A stretch of DNA of 36,369 nucleotides from Candidatus Absconditabacterales bacterium (lineage in GTDB: Bacteria > Patescibacteriota > Gracilibacteria > Absconditabacterales > Absconditicoccaceae), in the NCBI GenBank assembly GCA_039809405.1, contig JBDHUX010000001.1, forward strand, positions 1-36,369, written 5' to 3'. How positions within the stretch are numbered: the first letter of the stretch is position 1; each line of letters opens with the position of its first letter. A model generated the notes under the pieces. It did not search any database. It worked only from the letters and a program-made list of their open reading frames with translations, and was not told where the DNA came from. Shown in pieces: positions 7,807 to 11,420 of the stretch. A program made the translations under genes and the position numbers.

Positions 7807-8076
7807 ATGGCTATATTTAAAGTAGAGCAATCAGATTTGCTCGATAAATTTCAATCTGAAGGAACTCCTATATTATCAGGATCGAAAGAATTAACTCTCT
7901 TGGAAAGACTTGAAGAAGAAGGTGTAAATGTAAAAATTGAAGAAATAACTGATATTTTGACTATTGAAATGCCTTGATGTAATTCTCATAATTGCTCCCA
8001 TGCCTGTAGCGCTTGCAATAAGTGTAAATCCAATAATACTGAACAATATTGAGATCAAACATCTATCGCTGCTTAG
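7807..8076 (+). CDS. RiPP precursor peptide, 89 aa (acidic leader plus Cys/Ser-rich core)
   Basis: MAIFKVEQSDLLDKFQSEGTPILSGSKELTLLERLEEEGVNVKIEEITDILTIEMPG / CNSHNCSHACSACNKCKSNNTEQYGDQTSIAA. Both G in MPG and QYG are TGA. It lies directly upstream of the modification genes. Confidence 0.7.
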
Positions 8077-8089
8077 CAGAAAAATAGTA

Positions 8090-8123
8090 AAAAAGTACAA
8101 ATAATTATTATTTGTACTTTTTT
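8090..8123 (+). terminator. 13-bp perfect stem-loop between the precursor and enzyme genes (partial terminator/attenuator candidate)
   Basis: AAAAAGTACAAAT (8090-8102), loop aattatt, ATTTGTACTTTTT (8110-8122). Starts 14 nt after the precursor stop. Confidence 0.5.
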
Positions 8124-8148
8124 ATGATTTAACTTACTTTAAAAGACT

Positions 8149-8892
8149 ATGAAAAACTCTTATAAAATTAAAGATTTTATGCCTATGGGATATGCTGGTC
8201 AGTGTTCATTGACTTGTATGGTATGAATTATAAACTATTTTTATGATACTTTTTTTTGATCCAAAGATATGTTTGATCTATCTGCAGTAGTTAAATTTGG
8301 TAAATGACAGTTTGGAGATGTGCTAAATATTTATGAAATAGCCCTATTCTTGGAAAGATCTTATTTTGATATTACATTATTTTCTGGTATGATTAGATCT
8401 GATTGAGAATATATACTGCATGGTTTAGATAAAAAAAAAATGGTTGATATATATAAAAAATATATGAATCCCATATTACACAAATACATAGATTGAACTA
8501 CTTGGCACTTTGAAGAGTGAGACACAATGGAAATGGTTGATCTAGATCTACAAAGTAAATTAGCAAACAGTGATGTTAAATTTATATATGAATTGATGGA
8601 TAAAGATTTATTACAATCAATAAAAAGTAATCAAGATATTGAAAATTGAACTACTTTATTCTTACTTTGATTGAATTATAATATTTTACATAATATTTCC
8701 GATCATGATGATAAACCGGCTGGTCATATGGTATTGACTACAGGATTAGATCAAGATAATAATTTTATTATTTATGAGCCTATACGACCTCGTCCTAATC
8801 CTATTTTAATCCCACAACAAACTGTACTGAAAGCAATTCATTTTATGGAACCATATGAGATTTTAATGGTTAAAAATAACCTGAGTTATTAA
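8149..8892 (+). CDS. papain-fold cysteine peptidase, C39-like (candidate leader peptidase), 247 aa
   Basis: N-terminal GYAGQCSLTCMVGIINYF fits the Gln/Cys nucleophile context. C-terminal KPAGHMVLTTGLDQDNNFIIYEP fits the catalytic His and the following Asp/Asn. 10 in-frame TGA. Motif-level call only. Confidence 0.55.
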
Positions 8893-8915
8893 AATTTTAT
8901 TACACATCCATAGGT

Positions 8916-9881
8916 ATGTATAGATATAATCTAACTACACATTTCTTTAAGCAAGATGGTAGGATTATTATTCTATCTTGAGATCAGAGAATTATAATTG
9001 ATTTTATTGAAAAGATCTATAATTTTTTAGTTTATGCTATAAATTATATTTATATCAGCAAAGAGACACTAGATATCTATGAAATAAATAAGGATATCAT
9101 AAAATTATTTACCAAATATAAAATTTTATTAGATATTTATAAGTATCAAAGTGGAGTAGAATCGTTTACTTTCAACAATTATGTAAATCATATTTTTAAA
9201 CTTAGATCAAATGTTACAGAAGAAGATATCAATGACTTATATAGTTTACAACCATATGGTCTAGCTAATATAATTAACAAATCTATAATTAATAAATATA
9301 TTTTATTTAATGATATAGAGTGATTAGATCTTCGTAGTGTATTACTTCAAAGAAGTACAATATCATCATCTACTAGATTGGCGTACAAAAAATATAACTC
9401 AATCCAATTATATTCTCTTTATCAGTTTTTGAAATATATAAATACTCAACACGATGGGCATCTTTTATATTGATCATGATGATGATTTTATAGTGTATTT
9501 CAAATCATTGTAACAAGTGATAACTTAGTAATTATTACAGATAAGTATAATAATGTTATGTATCAGTATAATACCCCCAATATTTTTGAACTGTTTAAAG
9601 ATTCTATAATACCTATGGATTGAGTAAATTTGGATAGTTACAACGCCATAATAATACTAATATCTGACACATCTTTATTATTTAAAAAATATTGAAATAA
9701 ATGATATCATTTTTTATTACTAGAATCGGGCGCAATATCATTATTATTTAGGTTATTTTTTAGTGAAAGATGATATCTTGAGCTGTGAGGTTATAACTAC
9801 AACGAAATATTGAATAAAATAAAAATCTTTTTTATTGATACAGAAACTTTAATGATAACACACTTAATTTTATTAGCATAA
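8916..9881 (+). CDS. SagB-type (nitroreductase-fold, FMN) azoline dehydrogenase, 321 aa
   Basis: LRSVLLQRSTISSSTRLAYKK (R.S.R-type motif), LYGSGGGFYSVFQIIV (the PSAGGLYP-equivalent, with four of its Gly as TGA), and LLLESGAISLLFRLFFSERGYLELGGYNYNEI (C-terminal nitroreductase motif). Confidence 0.8.
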
Positions 9882-9893
9882 CTATCTATATTT

Positions 9894-11420
9894 ATGAGTA
9901 TTATTATAGTAGATCAGCTCTCTAAGAGCATTATAGAACTATCTGATCGGAAATTCATAGCTATAAATGGAGATTTTGATAGTATTTTAGATATAATAAA
10001 TAAAAAATATAAATGATTACACCTTCCAAATATGTATGTAAACTATATACCATGTTTTGATAAAATAGCTTTTAACATCCCCATGATAGTCTTAAGTACA
10101 TTACATCAGAAAATATTTATAGTTAACCAAGATTTATTCAAAAAAAATAAACCAAATGATATCCTTTGACGATTAATATGATTTAATGGAGACATTATAA
10201 ATAAAATAAATAGAAAATATGATATTTCTTTATATGGAAATAGCTGATTTTTTTCAAAGTTTCAAAATATTTCAATAAATAATAAAAATGACTTAATTGC
10301 TCATTCTATATACATAGATACCTATAAAGAATGAAATCTCTGGAAAAGCAATTCTCTTATTTCCCTACAGTATTTACATAGTAATAACAATATAGCCCTA
10401 TCTGAGTCTGCATGAAGTTGAGTTTCTAAAATCAAGGAAGCATCTGTGCAAAAATCTTTATCTGAGGTTTTAGAAAGATTTTCTGCATGAATTGTTCCAA
10501 GTGTATCTATATCAGAGGATATAGCTATAGCGAAAAATATTATTGAATTATATATATGAAAATTTGCTTTACAAGAAGCATATGATTTATATGATATAAT
10601 TGATTTATATACTAAGAACAATTACAGAATCCCTTGAGACTTACTATTTTATCCATATCCATATAAACAATACATCAATACTAGTTCTAATGGCATGGCA
10701 TGTCATATAAGTTATACTTTGGCAATTGAAAATGCTCTATTCGAACTTATAGAAAGAGATACATTTGTATTATCTTGGTTACTAAAATCGGGAATATATA
10801 TAATCAATAAAAATGCAAAAATCTCTGCACGAATAAAAAAATACAACCTTGCTGAATTCGATGTACAGTTATTTATTTTAAAACTTGATAATCCTATACC
10901 AGTTGTCTTATGTATTGTTAGGAAAAACAGTAAAATAAGTACTTCACTGGGCGCTCACTATAGCTTGGATATGGCTATCAAAAAATCTCTCATGGAATCA
11001 TGACAATTTAATATAGAAAATATATTATCAAATTGAAGCAATAACAATAAAGACGATATGATTTATATGCACTTAGAATATTATTTGGATGACAATAATT
11101 TCAATAAAATAGAATGGTATTTTGGATTACCATGAATTGACTATAAACATGCTAGGTGATTGTTCCCTTTATATACAAGCGCAAAAAAAATTATTACTCA
11201 TTATTATAAATTATGAATCAATATATATTGCTATAAATATAAAAATCCTATACTTAAAGTTTTTAAAAGATATTGTGTTAGGGTGATATCTGACAACTTA
11301 TTATATATTTGGTTTGGTAAAAAAGTTCCAGATCCTATTTTAAAATCCAAAAGACTTAAATATCGAAAAAAGTATTTTAATGTAAAATCTTTAAACCTAG
11401 AGATACATCCATTTGGATAA
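9894..11420 (+). CDS. YcaO-domain cyclodehydratase (SagD-like), 508 aa
   Basis: SESAGSGVSKIKEASVQKSLSEVLERFS and TSSNGMACHISYTLAIENALFELIERDTFVLSW are hallmark YcaO ATP/Mg motifs. The C-terminus ...LNLEIHPFG resembles the PxPxP tail. About 135-170 aa precede the YcaO domain. Confidence 0.9.

What the first reader, a model, noticed from the sequence alone, without database searches (positions are those of the whole stretch)
7807..11420. Compact azole-type RiPP (TOMM/LAP-like) biosynthetic cluster inside a recoded, reduced genome
Four co-directional genes sit directly after the rpsI terminator:
- a small Cys/Ser-rich precursor
- a papain/C39-like peptidase
- a SagB-type FMN dehydrogenase (RSTISSSTR, YGSGGGFY, ESGAISLLF...LGGY)
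- a YcaO cyclodehydratase (SGVSKIKEA...LERF, SNGMACH...ALFELIERD, C-terminal IHPFG)

YcaO plus SagB next to a Cys-rich peptide is the established signature of thiazole/oxazole-modified peptides such as streptolysin S, microcin B17 and plantazolicin.

The class is known. The setting is what is unusual: a table-25 CPR-type organism otherwise dominated by minimal housekeeping genes, and a four-gene architecture with no E1-like partner, transporter or immunity gene. To my knowledge such organisms are regarded as biosynthetically poor, so a secreted azole peptide could matter for how the cell interacts with a host or competitors.
Basis: partly seen in the sequence, partly recalled or inferred. Interest (0 to 1): 0.9.

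Follow-up and report, generated by a model that had tools for sequence, protein, structure and literature searches.

The report
Azole peptide gene cluster in SR1 bacterium
A real, intact four-gene cluster for a small thiazole/oxazole-modified peptide sits in a recoded (TGA = glycine) SR1/Absconditabacterales genome; this kind of cluster was already reported in other CPR bacteria, but relatives of this one are carried inside phage tail-gene modules.

Summary
Read with TGA = Gly, window 7807-11420 holds four co-directional intact genes after the rpsI terminator:
- an 89-aa precursor with a Cys/Ser-rich core
- a 247-aa C39-like cysteine peptidase
- a 321-aa SagB-type dehydrogenase
- a 508-aa YcaO

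YcaO passes Pfam's threshold. SagB and C39 membership rests on weak but family-wide HMM hits plus conserved catalytic motifs. The precursor, its core motif (CxSHNCxHACSAC) and the gene order recur in about seven related clusters, 36-51% identical in the YcaO to the window's.

The interpretation as a TOMM/LAP pathway is well supported. The claim that the setting is unprecedented is not. Sharrar et al. 2020 reported YcaO + nitroreductase + peptidase LAP clusters in 94 CPR genomes, none of them SR1 or Gracilibacteria.

New points:
- SecA places the host in Absconditabacterales.
- The cluster is fully adapted to code 25.
- No E1-like partner or transporter was found, but the dehydrogenase carries an N-terminal RRE-like domain (structure-level evidence only).
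- In at least three relatives the cluster lies between phage tape-measure and distal-tail genes, in one case as an intact cluster inside a decayed prophage.

Verdict: a new member of a known kind, moderately interesting.

The parts
7652..7674 (+). Intrinsic-terminator-like hairpin ending the upstream rplM-rpsI unit. It marks the 5' boundary of the cluster.
   Evidence: 8-bp stem, T-run; S9 identity.
7807..8076 (+). Gene A: 89-aa precursor peptide. It has an acidic leader of about 57 aa ending ...IEMPG. The 32-aa core is CNSHNCSHACSACNKCKSNNTEQYGDQTSIAA (5 Cys, 5 Ser, 2 Thr).
   Evidence: Homologous precursors lie in L001, L013/L014 and L012. C58, C67 and C70 are invariant. The motif (D/E)MPG-C(N/S)SHNC(S/G)HACSAC is shared with L001 and L013.
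8082..8130 (+). AT-rich perfect hairpin followed by a U-run, between the precursor gene and the enzyme genes. It is a likely attenuator or partial terminator that raises the precursor:enzyme transcript ratio (inferred).
   Evidence: dG -18.2 kcal/mol, z = -4.3, 0 of 200 shuffles fold as well.
8149..8892 (+). Gene B: 247-aa papain-fold, C39-like cysteine peptidase and presumed leader peptidase. Candidate triad: Cys19, His193, Glu210 (Asp in most relatives).
   Evidence: Peptidase_C39_2 is hit by 3 of 4 close and 5 of 19 wider family members (best E 2.7e-4). His193 is invariant, Cys19 is conserved and a D/E-P motif follows the His by about 17 residues.
8916..9881 (+). Gene C: 321 aa. An N-terminal RRE-like (PqqD-like) domain of about 75 aa (about 8916-9140) is followed by a SagB-type FMN dehydrogenase domain (about residues 150-321). 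Conserved motifs: STR, YGSGGGFY, K258-Y259-G-N-x-G-Y, ESGAI, ELGGY.
   Evidence: All 6 family members hit TIGR03605 SagB (best 3.9e-6). The best PDB profile hit is the thiazoline oxidase BmdC (E 0.014). Foldseek hits to the N-terminal roughly 80 residues of the AF2 model include McbB, MccB, LynD, ThcOx and lasso B1; the longer top-list alignments to these same proteins have rmsd about 18-20 A and carry no weight.
9123..9126 (+). T4 run in gene C that is T3 in two other assemblies of the same strain. The deletion frameshifts C just after the RRE-like domain.
   Evidence: L006 from SRR14932508 and L008 from SRR10090779; the rest of the 3.9 kb is identical.
9894..11420 (+). Gene D: 508-aa YcaO. 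An N-terminal domain of about 120-150 aa has unknown fold. The YcaO ATP/Mg-binding motifs are intact: S-E191-VL-E194-R195, F-E284-LI-E287-R288-D, K364-SLM-E368. The C-terminus IHPFG is invariant across the family.
   Evidence: Pfam YcaO 7.6e-26 (91.6 bits, cutoff 25.7); TIGR03604 SagD family 1.8e-28; PDB hits MJ1094, TruD, McbD.

Best explanation
This is a functional, minimal linear azole-containing peptide (LAP/TOMM) pathway in the chromosome of an Absconditabacterales (SR1) bacterium that reads TGA as glycine.

Proposed steps (all inferred from homology):
1. Gene A is translated into an 89-aa precursor. A hairpin after it probably keeps precursor transcripts in excess.
2. The leader is bound by the RRE-like N-terminal domain of protein C. 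This step is inferred from a moderate-confidence structure model.
3. The YcaO (D) uses ATP to cyclodehydrate the conserved Cys residues, and possibly Ser/Thr, of the core CNSHNCSHACSAC... to azolines.
4. The FMN-dependent SagB-type domain of C oxidises them to azoles (-20 Da per ring).
5. The C39-like cysteine peptidase B removes the leader, probably after the conserved (D/E)MPG motif.

No exporter or immunity gene belongs to the cluster.

The cluster is most likely horizontally acquired cargo. It is 5 points lower in GC than its surroundings. In relatives the same cluster is inserted between the tape-measure and distal-tail genes of code-25 siphovirus-like (pro)phages.
For: Gene content and intactness.

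YcaO:
- Pfam 7.6e-26, above threshold; the best NCBIfam family is the azoline-forming SagD type at 1.8e-28.
- The acidic ATP/Mg motifs ERF and ELIERD align with MJ1094 and TruD and are invariant in the family.

Dehydrogenase:
- TIGR03605 SagB is hit by 6 of 6 family members, best 3.9e-6.
- A profile search of PDB gives the thiazoline oxidase BmdC, aligned over the KYG-x-x-GY and GGxY motifs.
- K258-Y259, YGSGGGFY and the GGY motifs are invariant.

Peptidase: C39-like hits across the family plus conserved Cys/His/Asp(Glu).

Precursor:
- It is conserved in four lineages with three invariant Cys.
- The hairpin after it has z = -4.3.

RRE:
- The AF2 N-terminal domain has pLDDT 56-83 and a beta-beta-beta-alpha-alpha-alpha topology.
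- Foldseek matches include McbB (80 columns, rmsd 2.8 A, probability 1.0), ThcOx (80 columns, rmsd 3.9 A), MccB, LynD and lasso B1 proteins.

Adaptation to the host code: 36 of 62 Gly codons in the cluster are TGA, including those in catalytic motifs.

Mobility:
- Cluster GC is 25.2% against 30.5% for the rest of the window.
- Tape-measure and Dit genes flank the cluster in L001, L002 and L013.

Selection: the cluster is intact in L013 while the flanking phage genes are pseudogenes.

Precedent: the same enzyme set is described for CPR LAP clusters (PMC7298704).
Against: - No chemistry is shown.
- The SagB, C39 and SagD-subfamily hits are all below the curated cut-offs (13.9 bits against a 78.4 cutoff for the window's own C; 99.5 against 219 for D).
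- The canonical C-terminal PxPxP motif of azoline-forming YcaOs (PMC12338566) is replaced by IHPFG.
- No E1-like or Ocin-ThiF-like partner is found, and most characterised azoline-forming YcaOs need one.
- The RRE call rests on a model with overall pLDDT 39, built from a relative (L001) whose database sequence carries Trp at TGA positions. Its Foldseek E-values are 0.006-1, and no PqqD/RRE HMM hit exists.
- Two assemblies of the same strain carry a frameshift in C, so the pathway may be dispensable or decaying.
Confidence: 0.78

Rival explanations
1. The YcaO carries out a different backbone modification of the Cys-rich peptide, such as thioamidation, amidine formation, or azoline formation without oxidation. 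On this reading the SagB-like protein serves mainly as a leader-binding scaffold or has another redox role.
For: - The best solved-structure match of D is the thioamide-forming MJ1094 YcaO (4.7e-10), ahead of TruD and McbD.
- TIGR03266 (McrA thioamidation) is also hit, at 2.5e-14.
- The PxPxP motif is not canonical.
- No E1-like partner is present.
Against: - The azoline-forming SagD family scores best (1.8e-28), and its match runs to the last residue of both model and protein.
- No TfuA or sulfur-delivery gene is in the cluster.
- The dehydrogenase keeps the Lys-Tyr and FMN-site motifs invariant across 33-45% identical homologues, which argues for a working oxidase.
- Cys residues are the invariant core positions.
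Confidence: 0.1
2. The window copy is a decaying, non-functional relic of phage cargo that no longer makes a product.
For: - A 1-bp deletion frameshifts gene C in two independent assemblies of the same strain.
- The cluster has low GC relative to the host.
- No exporter or immunity gene is present.
- The locus is not conserved next to SecA in any of the 80 related-genome loci examined.
Against: - All four ORFs are intact in the window and in the other assemblies of the strain that cover them (four span the whole cluster).
- Catalytic motifs are invariant.
- In L013 the cluster stays intact while the flanking phage genes have decayed, which points to purifying selection on the cluster itself.
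- The T-run variant could also be an assembly or sequencing error, or phase variation.
Confidence: 0.08
3. The four ORFs are chance or mis-called ORFs created by forcing table 25 on the sequence.
For: With table 11 nothing longer than about 100 aa is seen in the region.
Against: - TGA aligns with Gly codons in homologues.
- The same recoding restores SecA and the ribosomal proteins.
- The YcaO hit is highly significant.
- The genes are conserved in about seven other clusters.
Confidence: 0.01

Closest known systems
LAP clusters of CPR bacteria described by Sharrar et al. 2020 (Microgenomates_ANG_785 and 110 further clusters in Microgenomates, Parcubacteria, Peregrinibacteria and Katanobacteria; PMC7298704)
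   Same: Both have YcaO + nitroreductase-type dehydrogenase + peptidase + a precursor of about 84-89 aa with a Ser/Cys-rich core. Neither has a separate E1-like protein described. Both hosts are reduced CPR genomes.
   Different: - The host here is Absconditabacterales (code 25), a lineage not in their list.
- Sequence relatedness to their clusters could not be tested here.
- Relatives of this cluster sit in phage tail modules.
Microcin B17 synthetase McbBCD with precursor McbA
   Same: Both combine a YcaO cyclodehydratase (McbD is hit at E 0.006), an FMN dehydrogenase of the SagB/McbC type, a Gly/Ser/Cys-rich core and leader recognition through an RRE. The McbB RRE is the best good-rmsd structural match of C's N-terminal domain (6gos, 80 columns, rmsd 2.8 A).
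   Different: - McbB is a separate E1-like protein that carries the RRE. Here no E1-like protein exists and the RRE-like domain is fused to the dehydrogenase.
- The microcin B17 operon has export and immunity genes (McbEFG), known from the literature; none are present here.
- Its leader is removed by a host protease rather than a cluster-encoded C39-like enzyme (also from the literature).
Streptolysin S / SagBCD-type TOMM clusters
   Same: The best HMM families are SagD (TIGR03604) and SagB (TIGR03605). The core is Cys/Ser/Thr-rich and follows a leader ending in a small-residue motif.
   Different: - There is no SagC.
- Scores are far below the curated family cut-offs.
- The peptidase is C39-like, not a CaaX-type SagE.
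- There is no ABC transporter.
Cyanobactin oxidase ThcOx (PDB 5LQ4)
   Same: Same architecture: N-terminal RRE domain(s) fused to an FMN-dependent azoline oxidase of the nitroreductase fold. It is a structural match of C's N-terminus (80 columns, rmsd 3.9 A, probability 0.94).
   Different: - ThcOx works alongside a fused E1-YcaO heterocyclase that has its own RRE.
- Here the oxidase would be the only RRE-bearing protein detected.
Phage-encoded bacteriocin/RiPP clusters (e.g. sublancin on SPbeta; Dragos et al. 2020 preprint, 10.1101/2020.10.01.322628)
   Same: A RiPP cluster carried as cargo of a temperate phage or prophage.
   Different: - That survey's text mentions no LAP, YcaO or azole.
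- Here the cargo lies between the tape-measure and Dit genes of phages that use code 25.
- No related YcaO exists in INPHARED or IMG/VR.

Membership tests
TOMM / LAP (YcaO-dependent azol(in)e RiPP pathway) | YcaO domain protein with an intact ATP/Mg2+-binding site | tested here: met
   - Pfam PF02624: 91.6 bits against a 25.7 cutoff.
- E191, E194, R195, E284, E287, R288 and E368 are invariant in the family and align with the corresponding MJ1094/TruD residues.
- The position aligned with an Arg of MJ1094 is an invariant Lys (K364).
TOMM / LAP (YcaO-dependent azol(in)e RiPP pathway) | Membership of the azoline-forming SagD subfamily at the curated threshold | tested here: not met
   TIGR03604 is the best-scoring family (1.8e-28, 99.5 bits) and its match reaches the C-terminus. 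It is below the curated cutoff of 219.25 bits, so D is a divergent relative.
TOMM / LAP (YcaO-dependent azol(in)e RiPP pathway) | C-terminal PxPxP motif of azoline-forming YcaOs | tested here: not met
   The C-terminus is I-H-P-F-G (invariant HPFG in 7 homologues). Only the central Pro is kept. The motif is described as canonical in PMC12338566.
TOMM / LAP (YcaO-dependent azol(in)e RiPP pathway) | E1-like (SagC/McbB) or Ocin-ThiF-like partner protein or domain | tested here: not met
   - No such Pfam or NCBIfam hit in A-D at E <= 1.
- None in any related cluster.
- None in the other window ORFs examined.
- The rest of the genome is unseen.
TOMM / LAP (YcaO-dependent azol(in)e RiPP pathway) | RiPP recognition element (RRE) for leader binding | tested here: inconclusive
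   - The AF2 model of the L001 homologue of C has pLDDT 56-83 over residues 1-74, with a beta3-alpha3 topology.
- Foldseek hits to the N-terminal roughly 80 residues (rmsd 2.7-4 A) are to RRE-bearing RiPP enzymes, but E-values are 0.006-1.
- No HMM support exists.
- The N-terminal domain of D has no structural match.
TOMM / LAP (YcaO-dependent azol(in)e RiPP pathway) | FMN-dependent SagB/McbC-type azoline dehydrogenase next to the YcaO | tested here: met
   - TIGR03605 is hit by 6 of 6 family members (best 3.9e-6; the window protein alone gives 0.028, below the curated cutoff).
- The PDB profile hit is the BmdC thiazoline oxidase.
- The Lys-Tyr motif (K258-Y259) and the GSGGGxY and GGY motifs are invariant.
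- This is remote but consistent homology. FMN binding was not tested.
TOMM / LAP (YcaO-dependent azol(in)e RiPP pathway) | Adjacent precursor with a leader and a Cys/Ser/Thr-rich core | tested here: met
   The 89-aa ORF has 12 heterocyclisable residues in its 32-aa core. It is conserved in L001, L013 and L012 with three invariant Cys.
TOMM / LAP (YcaO-dependent azol(in)e RiPP pathway) | Azole rings actually formed on the peptide | not testable with these tools
   This needs expression of recoded genes and mass spectrometry.
Peptidase C39-like (clan CA cysteine peptidases) | Significant match to a C39-type family model | tested here: inconclusive
   - PF13529 Peptidase_C39_2: E 0.24 for the window protein, 3 of 4 close relatives (best 0.0027) and 5 of 19 wider relatives (best 2.7e-4).
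- PF03412 is hit by 2 of 19 and DUF3335 by 1 of 19.
- All are below gathering scores.
- No structure was predicted for B.
Peptidase C39-like (clan CA cysteine peptidases) | Cys ... His ... Asp/Asn catalytic residues in papain order | tested here: met
   - Cys19 is conserved in all full-length members.
- His193 is invariant in 19 representatives.
- D/E210-P211 follows the His by about 17 residues, as in the C39 'H...DP' pattern. The comparison with the C39 pattern is from my own knowledge.
Peptidase C39-like (clan CA cysteine peptidases) | Double-glycine (GG/GA/GS) cleavage motif at the leader end | tested here: not met
   The leader ends in M-P-G in three lineages and in Q-A-L in L012. The cleavage site is therefore only inferred.
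Genetic code 25 lineage (Absconditabacteria/SR1 or Gracilibacteria) | TGA decoded as glycine | tested here: met
   - TGA lies opposite Gly in 227 of 495 aligned pair counts; the next most frequent are Asn 45 and Lys 36, and Trp is not in the top ten.
- All genes checked end in TAA or TAG.
- No tRNA-Gly(UCA) lies in the window, so the decoding tRNA was not seen.
Genetic code 25 lineage (Absconditabacteria/SR1 or Gracilibacteria) | Housekeeping genes closest to that lineage | tested here: met
   SecA is 74% identical to a Candidatus Absconditabacterales MAG and 60-64% identical to SR1 MAGs, ahead of all other bacteria.

The most novel reading that the evidence does not exclude
This cluster family is native phage cargo. 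It is a minimal LAP pathway inserted between the tape-measure and distal-tail genes of siphovirus-like phages that themselves use TGA = Gly and infect SR1/Gracilibacteria.

On this reading the cluster would be expressed with the late tail operon and its product released by lysis, which would explain the lack of a transporter. SR1 hosts have repeatedly kept the cluster after the prophage decayed (window, L013).

Mechanistically, the pathway would dispense with the E1-like partner. The only detected RRE sits on the dehydrogenase, and the YcaO carries a new N-terminal domain and an HPFG terminus in place of PxPxP.
Probability: 0.3. Interest if true: 0.7.

Novelty: new member of a known kind. Interest (0 to 1): 0.5.

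Why it matters
The finding extends LAP/TOMM biosynthesis to the recoded SR1/Absconditabacterales lineage. Standard pipelines fragment these genes: public protein sets translate them with Trp at TGA, or split them.

It supplies a compact, well-defined four-gene system with no separate E1-like partner. That system could test how a YcaO is activated and how the leader is recognised when the only detected RRE is on the dehydrogenase.

The link to phage tail modules suggests a route by which ultra-small episymbionts gain and keep antibiotic-like peptides. It also identifies a possible phage-borne weapon in a poorly known virus-host system.

The general claim that CPR bacteria make azole peptides is already in the literature, so the surprise is moderate.

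Tried and rejected
- **Related YcaO loci:** scans with the D alignment found nothing in GTDB species representatives or IMG/VR. JGI metagenomes gave one locus, L095, which matches L003 at the same coordinates. INPHARED phages gave no tblastn hit.
- **Correct table-25 sequences for structure prediction:** Models had to be built from database sequences carrying Trp at TGA sites, with 2-5 row alignments. The catalytic domains of C and D came out at pLDDT below 50 and were not used.
- **N-terminal domain of D:** residues 1-140 have pLDDT 60-86 but no meaningful Foldseek match. hhalign shows no similarity to C's N-terminal domain. Its role stays unknown.
- **C-terminus of D:** the C-terminal 117 aa gave no PDB match, so the HPFG terminus could not be aligned residue by residue with solved azoline YcaOs.
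- **A fifth cluster gene:** the 146-aa convergent gene downstream (11474-11914) has no homologue next to any related cluster and no Pfam or PHROG hit. It was rejected as a cluster member.
- **Phage remnants in the window:** there are no tape-measure or Dit remnants by tblastn and no PHROG hits in six neighbouring unknown proteins.
- **An empty site in relatives:** none of the 80 SecA loci keeps the window's gene order, so an insertion event could not be shown.
- **Habitat:** the sample accessions were not found in the paper library.

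
Full report
**1. What is in the sequence**

Under the standard bacterial code, window 7800-11450 contains only short broken ORFs. 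With TGA read as a sense codon (table 25), four intact co-directional ORFs appear:
- A, 7807-8076, 89 aa
- B, 8149-8892, 247 aa
- C, 8916-9881, 321 aa
- D, 9894-11420, 508 aa

They carry 2, 8, 11 and 15 in-frame TGA codons and end in TAG or TAA.

The gene upstream is rpsI (ribosomal protein S9; precomputed Pfam on the identical contig L005). It is followed by a terminator-like hairpin at 7652-7674. Downstream lie a convergent 146-aa ORF of unknown function and secA.

**2. Genetic code and organism**

Public protein sets hold these genes translated with Trp at TGA. In codon-level alignments of the B, C and D families, TGA sits opposite Gly in 227 of 495 pair counts. The next most frequent residues are Asn (45) and Lys (36), and Trp is not among the ten commonest.

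Invariant glycine motifs interchange TGA and GGN between homologues, for example YGSGGGFY. TGA makes up 36 of 62 Gly codons in the cluster and 128 of 273 in other window genes.

The window's SecA is 74% identical to that of a Candidatus Absconditabacterales MAG. It is 60-64% identical to SR1 MAGs, ahead of all other bacteria. No tRNA-Gly(UCA) lies in the window. The host is therefore an Absconditabacterales (SR1) bacterium using code 25.

**3. What the four proteins are**

*D (YcaO).*
- Pfam PF02624: E 7.6e-26, 91.6 bits against a cutoff of 25.7.
- The best NCBIfam model is the azoline-forming SagD family TIGR03604 (1.8e-28). Its match runs to the last residue of both model and protein, but the score is below the curated cutoff (99.5 against 219 bits).
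- Solved relatives are the M. jannaschii YcaO MJ1094, TruD and McbD.
- The acidic and Arg residues of the ATP/Mg site (SEVLER, FELIERD, KxxxE) align with those of MJ1094 and TruD and are invariant in the family.
- Two things depart from canonical azoline YcaOs. The C-terminus is IHPFG rather than PxPxP. About 120-150 N-terminal residues form a separate domain that AF2 models with pLDDT 60-86, but it has no structural or sequence match.

*C (dehydrogenase).*
- C gives no Pfam hit and only E 0.028 to TIGR03605 (SagB) on its own.
- All six family members hit TIGR03605 as their top family, best 3.9e-6.
- A family profile finds the thiazoline oxidase BmdC in the PDB, aligned over GGxY and KYGxxGY.
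- The Lys-Tyr pair (K258-Y259), YGSGGGFY, ESGxI and GGY are invariant across homologues 33-45% identical. The functional importance of the Lys-Tyr motif in TOMM dehydrogenases is from my own knowledge of the literature.
- The AF2 model is poor overall (pLDDT 39), because only mistranslated sequences and two alignment rows could be used. Residues 1-74 have pLDDT 56-83 and a three-strand, three-helix topology.
- Foldseek's matches to these roughly 80 residues (rmsd 2.7-4 A) are to enzymes that carry a RiPP recognition element: McbB (80 columns, rmsd 2.8 A, probability 1.0), MccB, LynD, ThcOx and lasso-peptide B1 proteins. The list also holds unrelated low-probability hits (integrases, phage P2 gpV), and the longer alignments have rmsd about 18-20 A.
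- E-values are weak (0.006-1) and no HMM supports the call, so I treat the RRE as probable, not shown.

*B (peptidase).*
- B is the weakest call.
- Peptidase_C39_2 is hit by 3 of 4 close relatives and 5 of 19 wider relatives (best 2.7e-4). Peptidase_C39 and DUF3335 are hit by a few more.
- Cys19 is conserved, His193 is invariant, and a D/E-P motif follows the His by about 17 residues. This matches the papain-order C39 pattern.
- An exhaustive HMMER scan of 1.84 billion representatives finds only 28 family members. Most show 3-9% Trp and low Gly, the signature of mistranslated TGA = Gly genes. The family therefore looks confined to code-25 lineages.

*A (precursor).*
- It has an acidic leader and the core CNSHNCSHACSACNKCKSNNTEQYGDQTSIAA.
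- Homologous precursors precede B in L001, L013/L014 and L012. The shared motif is (D/E)MPG-C(N/S)SHNC(S/G)HACSAC, and three Cys are invariant.
- A perfect AT-rich hairpin with a U-run follows gene A (dG -18.2 kcal/mol, z = -4.3). This is the usual position of an attenuator in RiPP operons; that interpretation is mine.

**4. Distribution and context**

The identical strain occurs in at least seven samples. Distinct homologous clusters, 36-51% identical in the YcaO to the window's, occur in L001, L002, L003/L095, L004, L012 and L013/L014. The gene order A-B-C-D is the same wherever it is visible.

None has an E1-like protein, an ABC transporter or a recognisable immunity gene. The window's other ORFs are housekeeping genes.

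The genomic sites differ between lineages, and there is a clear phage link:
- In L001 the gene directly upstream of A is a tape-measure C-terminus (PHROG E 1.2e-10). The start of a Dit gene follows D.
- In L002 a distal tail protein Dit (2.1e-15) directly follows D.
- In L013 a frameshifted tape-measure fragment and a Dit pseudogene with an internal stop flank an intact cluster, inside a chromosomal neighbourhood with HrcA and RecA.
- The phage genes contain in-frame TGA.
- L012 has an IS30-like ORF upstream (identified by reading the sequence) and a KAP NTPase gene downstream.

The window copy has no phage remnants. It is 5 points lower in GC than its surroundings (25.2% against 30.5%). I infer horizontal acquisition, plausibly through such phages, followed by retention.

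**5. Mechanism**

The best-supported reading is a minimal LAP/TOMM pathway:
1. The RRE-like domain of C captures the leader.
2. D carries out ATP-dependent cyclodehydration of the core Cys, and perhaps Ser/Thr.
3. The SagB-type domain of C carries out FMN-dependent oxidation to azoles.
4. B cleaves the leader near MPG.

All steps are inferred from homology. None is shown.

How D is activated without an E1-like partner is open. So are the role of D's N-terminal domain and how the product leaves the cell.

The main rival is a different YcaO chemistry, such as thioamide or amidine formation. It is fed by the MJ1094 and TIGR03266 matches and the missing PxPxP motif. It is disfavoured by the conserved dehydrogenase and by the better SagD score.

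A second rival is that the window copy is decaying. It rests on a 1-bp deletion in a T4 run (window 9123-9126) that frameshifts C in two other assemblies of the same strain. That variant could be real, phase-variable or an assembly error.

**6. Comparison with what is known, and novelty**

The class is known. So is its occurrence in CPR bacteria. Sharrar et al. 2020 reported a Microgenomates LAP cluster with YcaO, nitroreductase, peptidase and an 84-aa precursor. They found 110 further LAP clusters in 93 CPR genomes, 89 of them with a nitroreductase gene beside the YcaO (PMC7298704). A 2025 survey also lists YcaO RiPP clusters in CPR (PMC12153355). Neither lists SR1 or Gracilibacteria as carriers.

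Phage-borne bacteriocin clusters are also known in general (10.1101/2020.10.01.322628). The text of that survey does not mention LAP, YcaO or azole.

The window feature is therefore a new member of a known kind. Three points are worth following:
- the code-25 host
- the RRE-dehydrogenase architecture without an E1-like partner, and with a non-canonical YcaO terminus
- carriage between tape-measure and Dit genes in code-25 phages

**7. Verdict**

| Item | Verdict |
|---|---|
| Observation | confirmed |
| Interpretation | partly supported: the class is right, the claim about the setting is overstated |
| Confidence that this is an azole-type RiPP pathway | about 0.78 |
| Interest | 0.5 |
| Phage-cargo, partner-free variant | probability about 0.3, interest about 0.7 if true |

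Noticed in passing
L001 2-646 and 4581-4682; L002 2327-3301; L013 9295-9610 and 13611-14306: In relatives, the same A-B-C-D cluster lies between a phage tape-measure gene and a distal tail protein (Dit) gene. In L013 both phage genes are pseudogenes while the cluster is intact and the flanks are chromosomal (HrcA, RecA). The phage genes carry in-frame TGA, so these (pro)phages use code 25.
   Followed up: yes
window 9123-9126 (gene C, codon ~70): A T4 run is T3 in two other assemblies of the same strain (L006 from SRR14932508, L008 from SRR10090779). This frameshifts the dehydrogenase just after its RRE-like domain. The rest of the 3.9-kb region is identical. It could be a real inactivating or phase-variable allele, or a homopolymer error.
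   Followed up: partly
window 8082-8130: A perfect 18-bp AT-rich hairpin plus U-run lies between the precursor gene and the peptidase gene (z = -4.3). The terminator scan missed it because it lacks G-C pairs.
   Followed up: partly
window 9894-10340 (D residues 1-150): The YcaO has a conserved N-terminal alpha/beta domain (invariant NxYxNYxPCF motif) modelled with pLDDT 60-86. It has no match in PDB by Foldseek and no HMM hit.
   Followed up: partly
window 11474-11914 (- strand): A 146-aa convergent ORF lies directly downstream of the YcaO. It has no Pfam or PHROG hit and no counterpart beside any related cluster. Its function is unknown and it is probably not part of the cluster.
   Followed up: partly
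window 14587-19663: This is a block of four ORFs (958, 138, 339 and 217 aa) between secA and rpsL, with no Pfam or PHROG hits. The 958-aa protein has predicted hydrophobic segments, and the 339-aa protein is rich in coiled-coil-like repeats. They may be lineage-specific surface or interaction proteins.
   Followed up: no
L012 7842-8837 and 12646-15009: The most divergent cluster (precursor core SCNSNSGGGCGRSGSCGASSC) is preceded by an ORF that reads like an IS30-type transposase. It is followed by a KAP-family NTPase gene. This is another sign of mobility.
   Followed up: no
window 11952-13712 (- strand): The SecA ORF is only 586 aa, whereas bacterial SecA proteins are usually about 850-900 aa. 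SecA matches in related SR1 genomes cover the same 1-585 span. This lineage may have a short or split SecA.
   Followed up: no
window 31545-33434: A 629-aa ELP3-like radical SAM protein (Radical_SAM + Radical_SAM_C) is present in this reduced genome.
   Followed up: no
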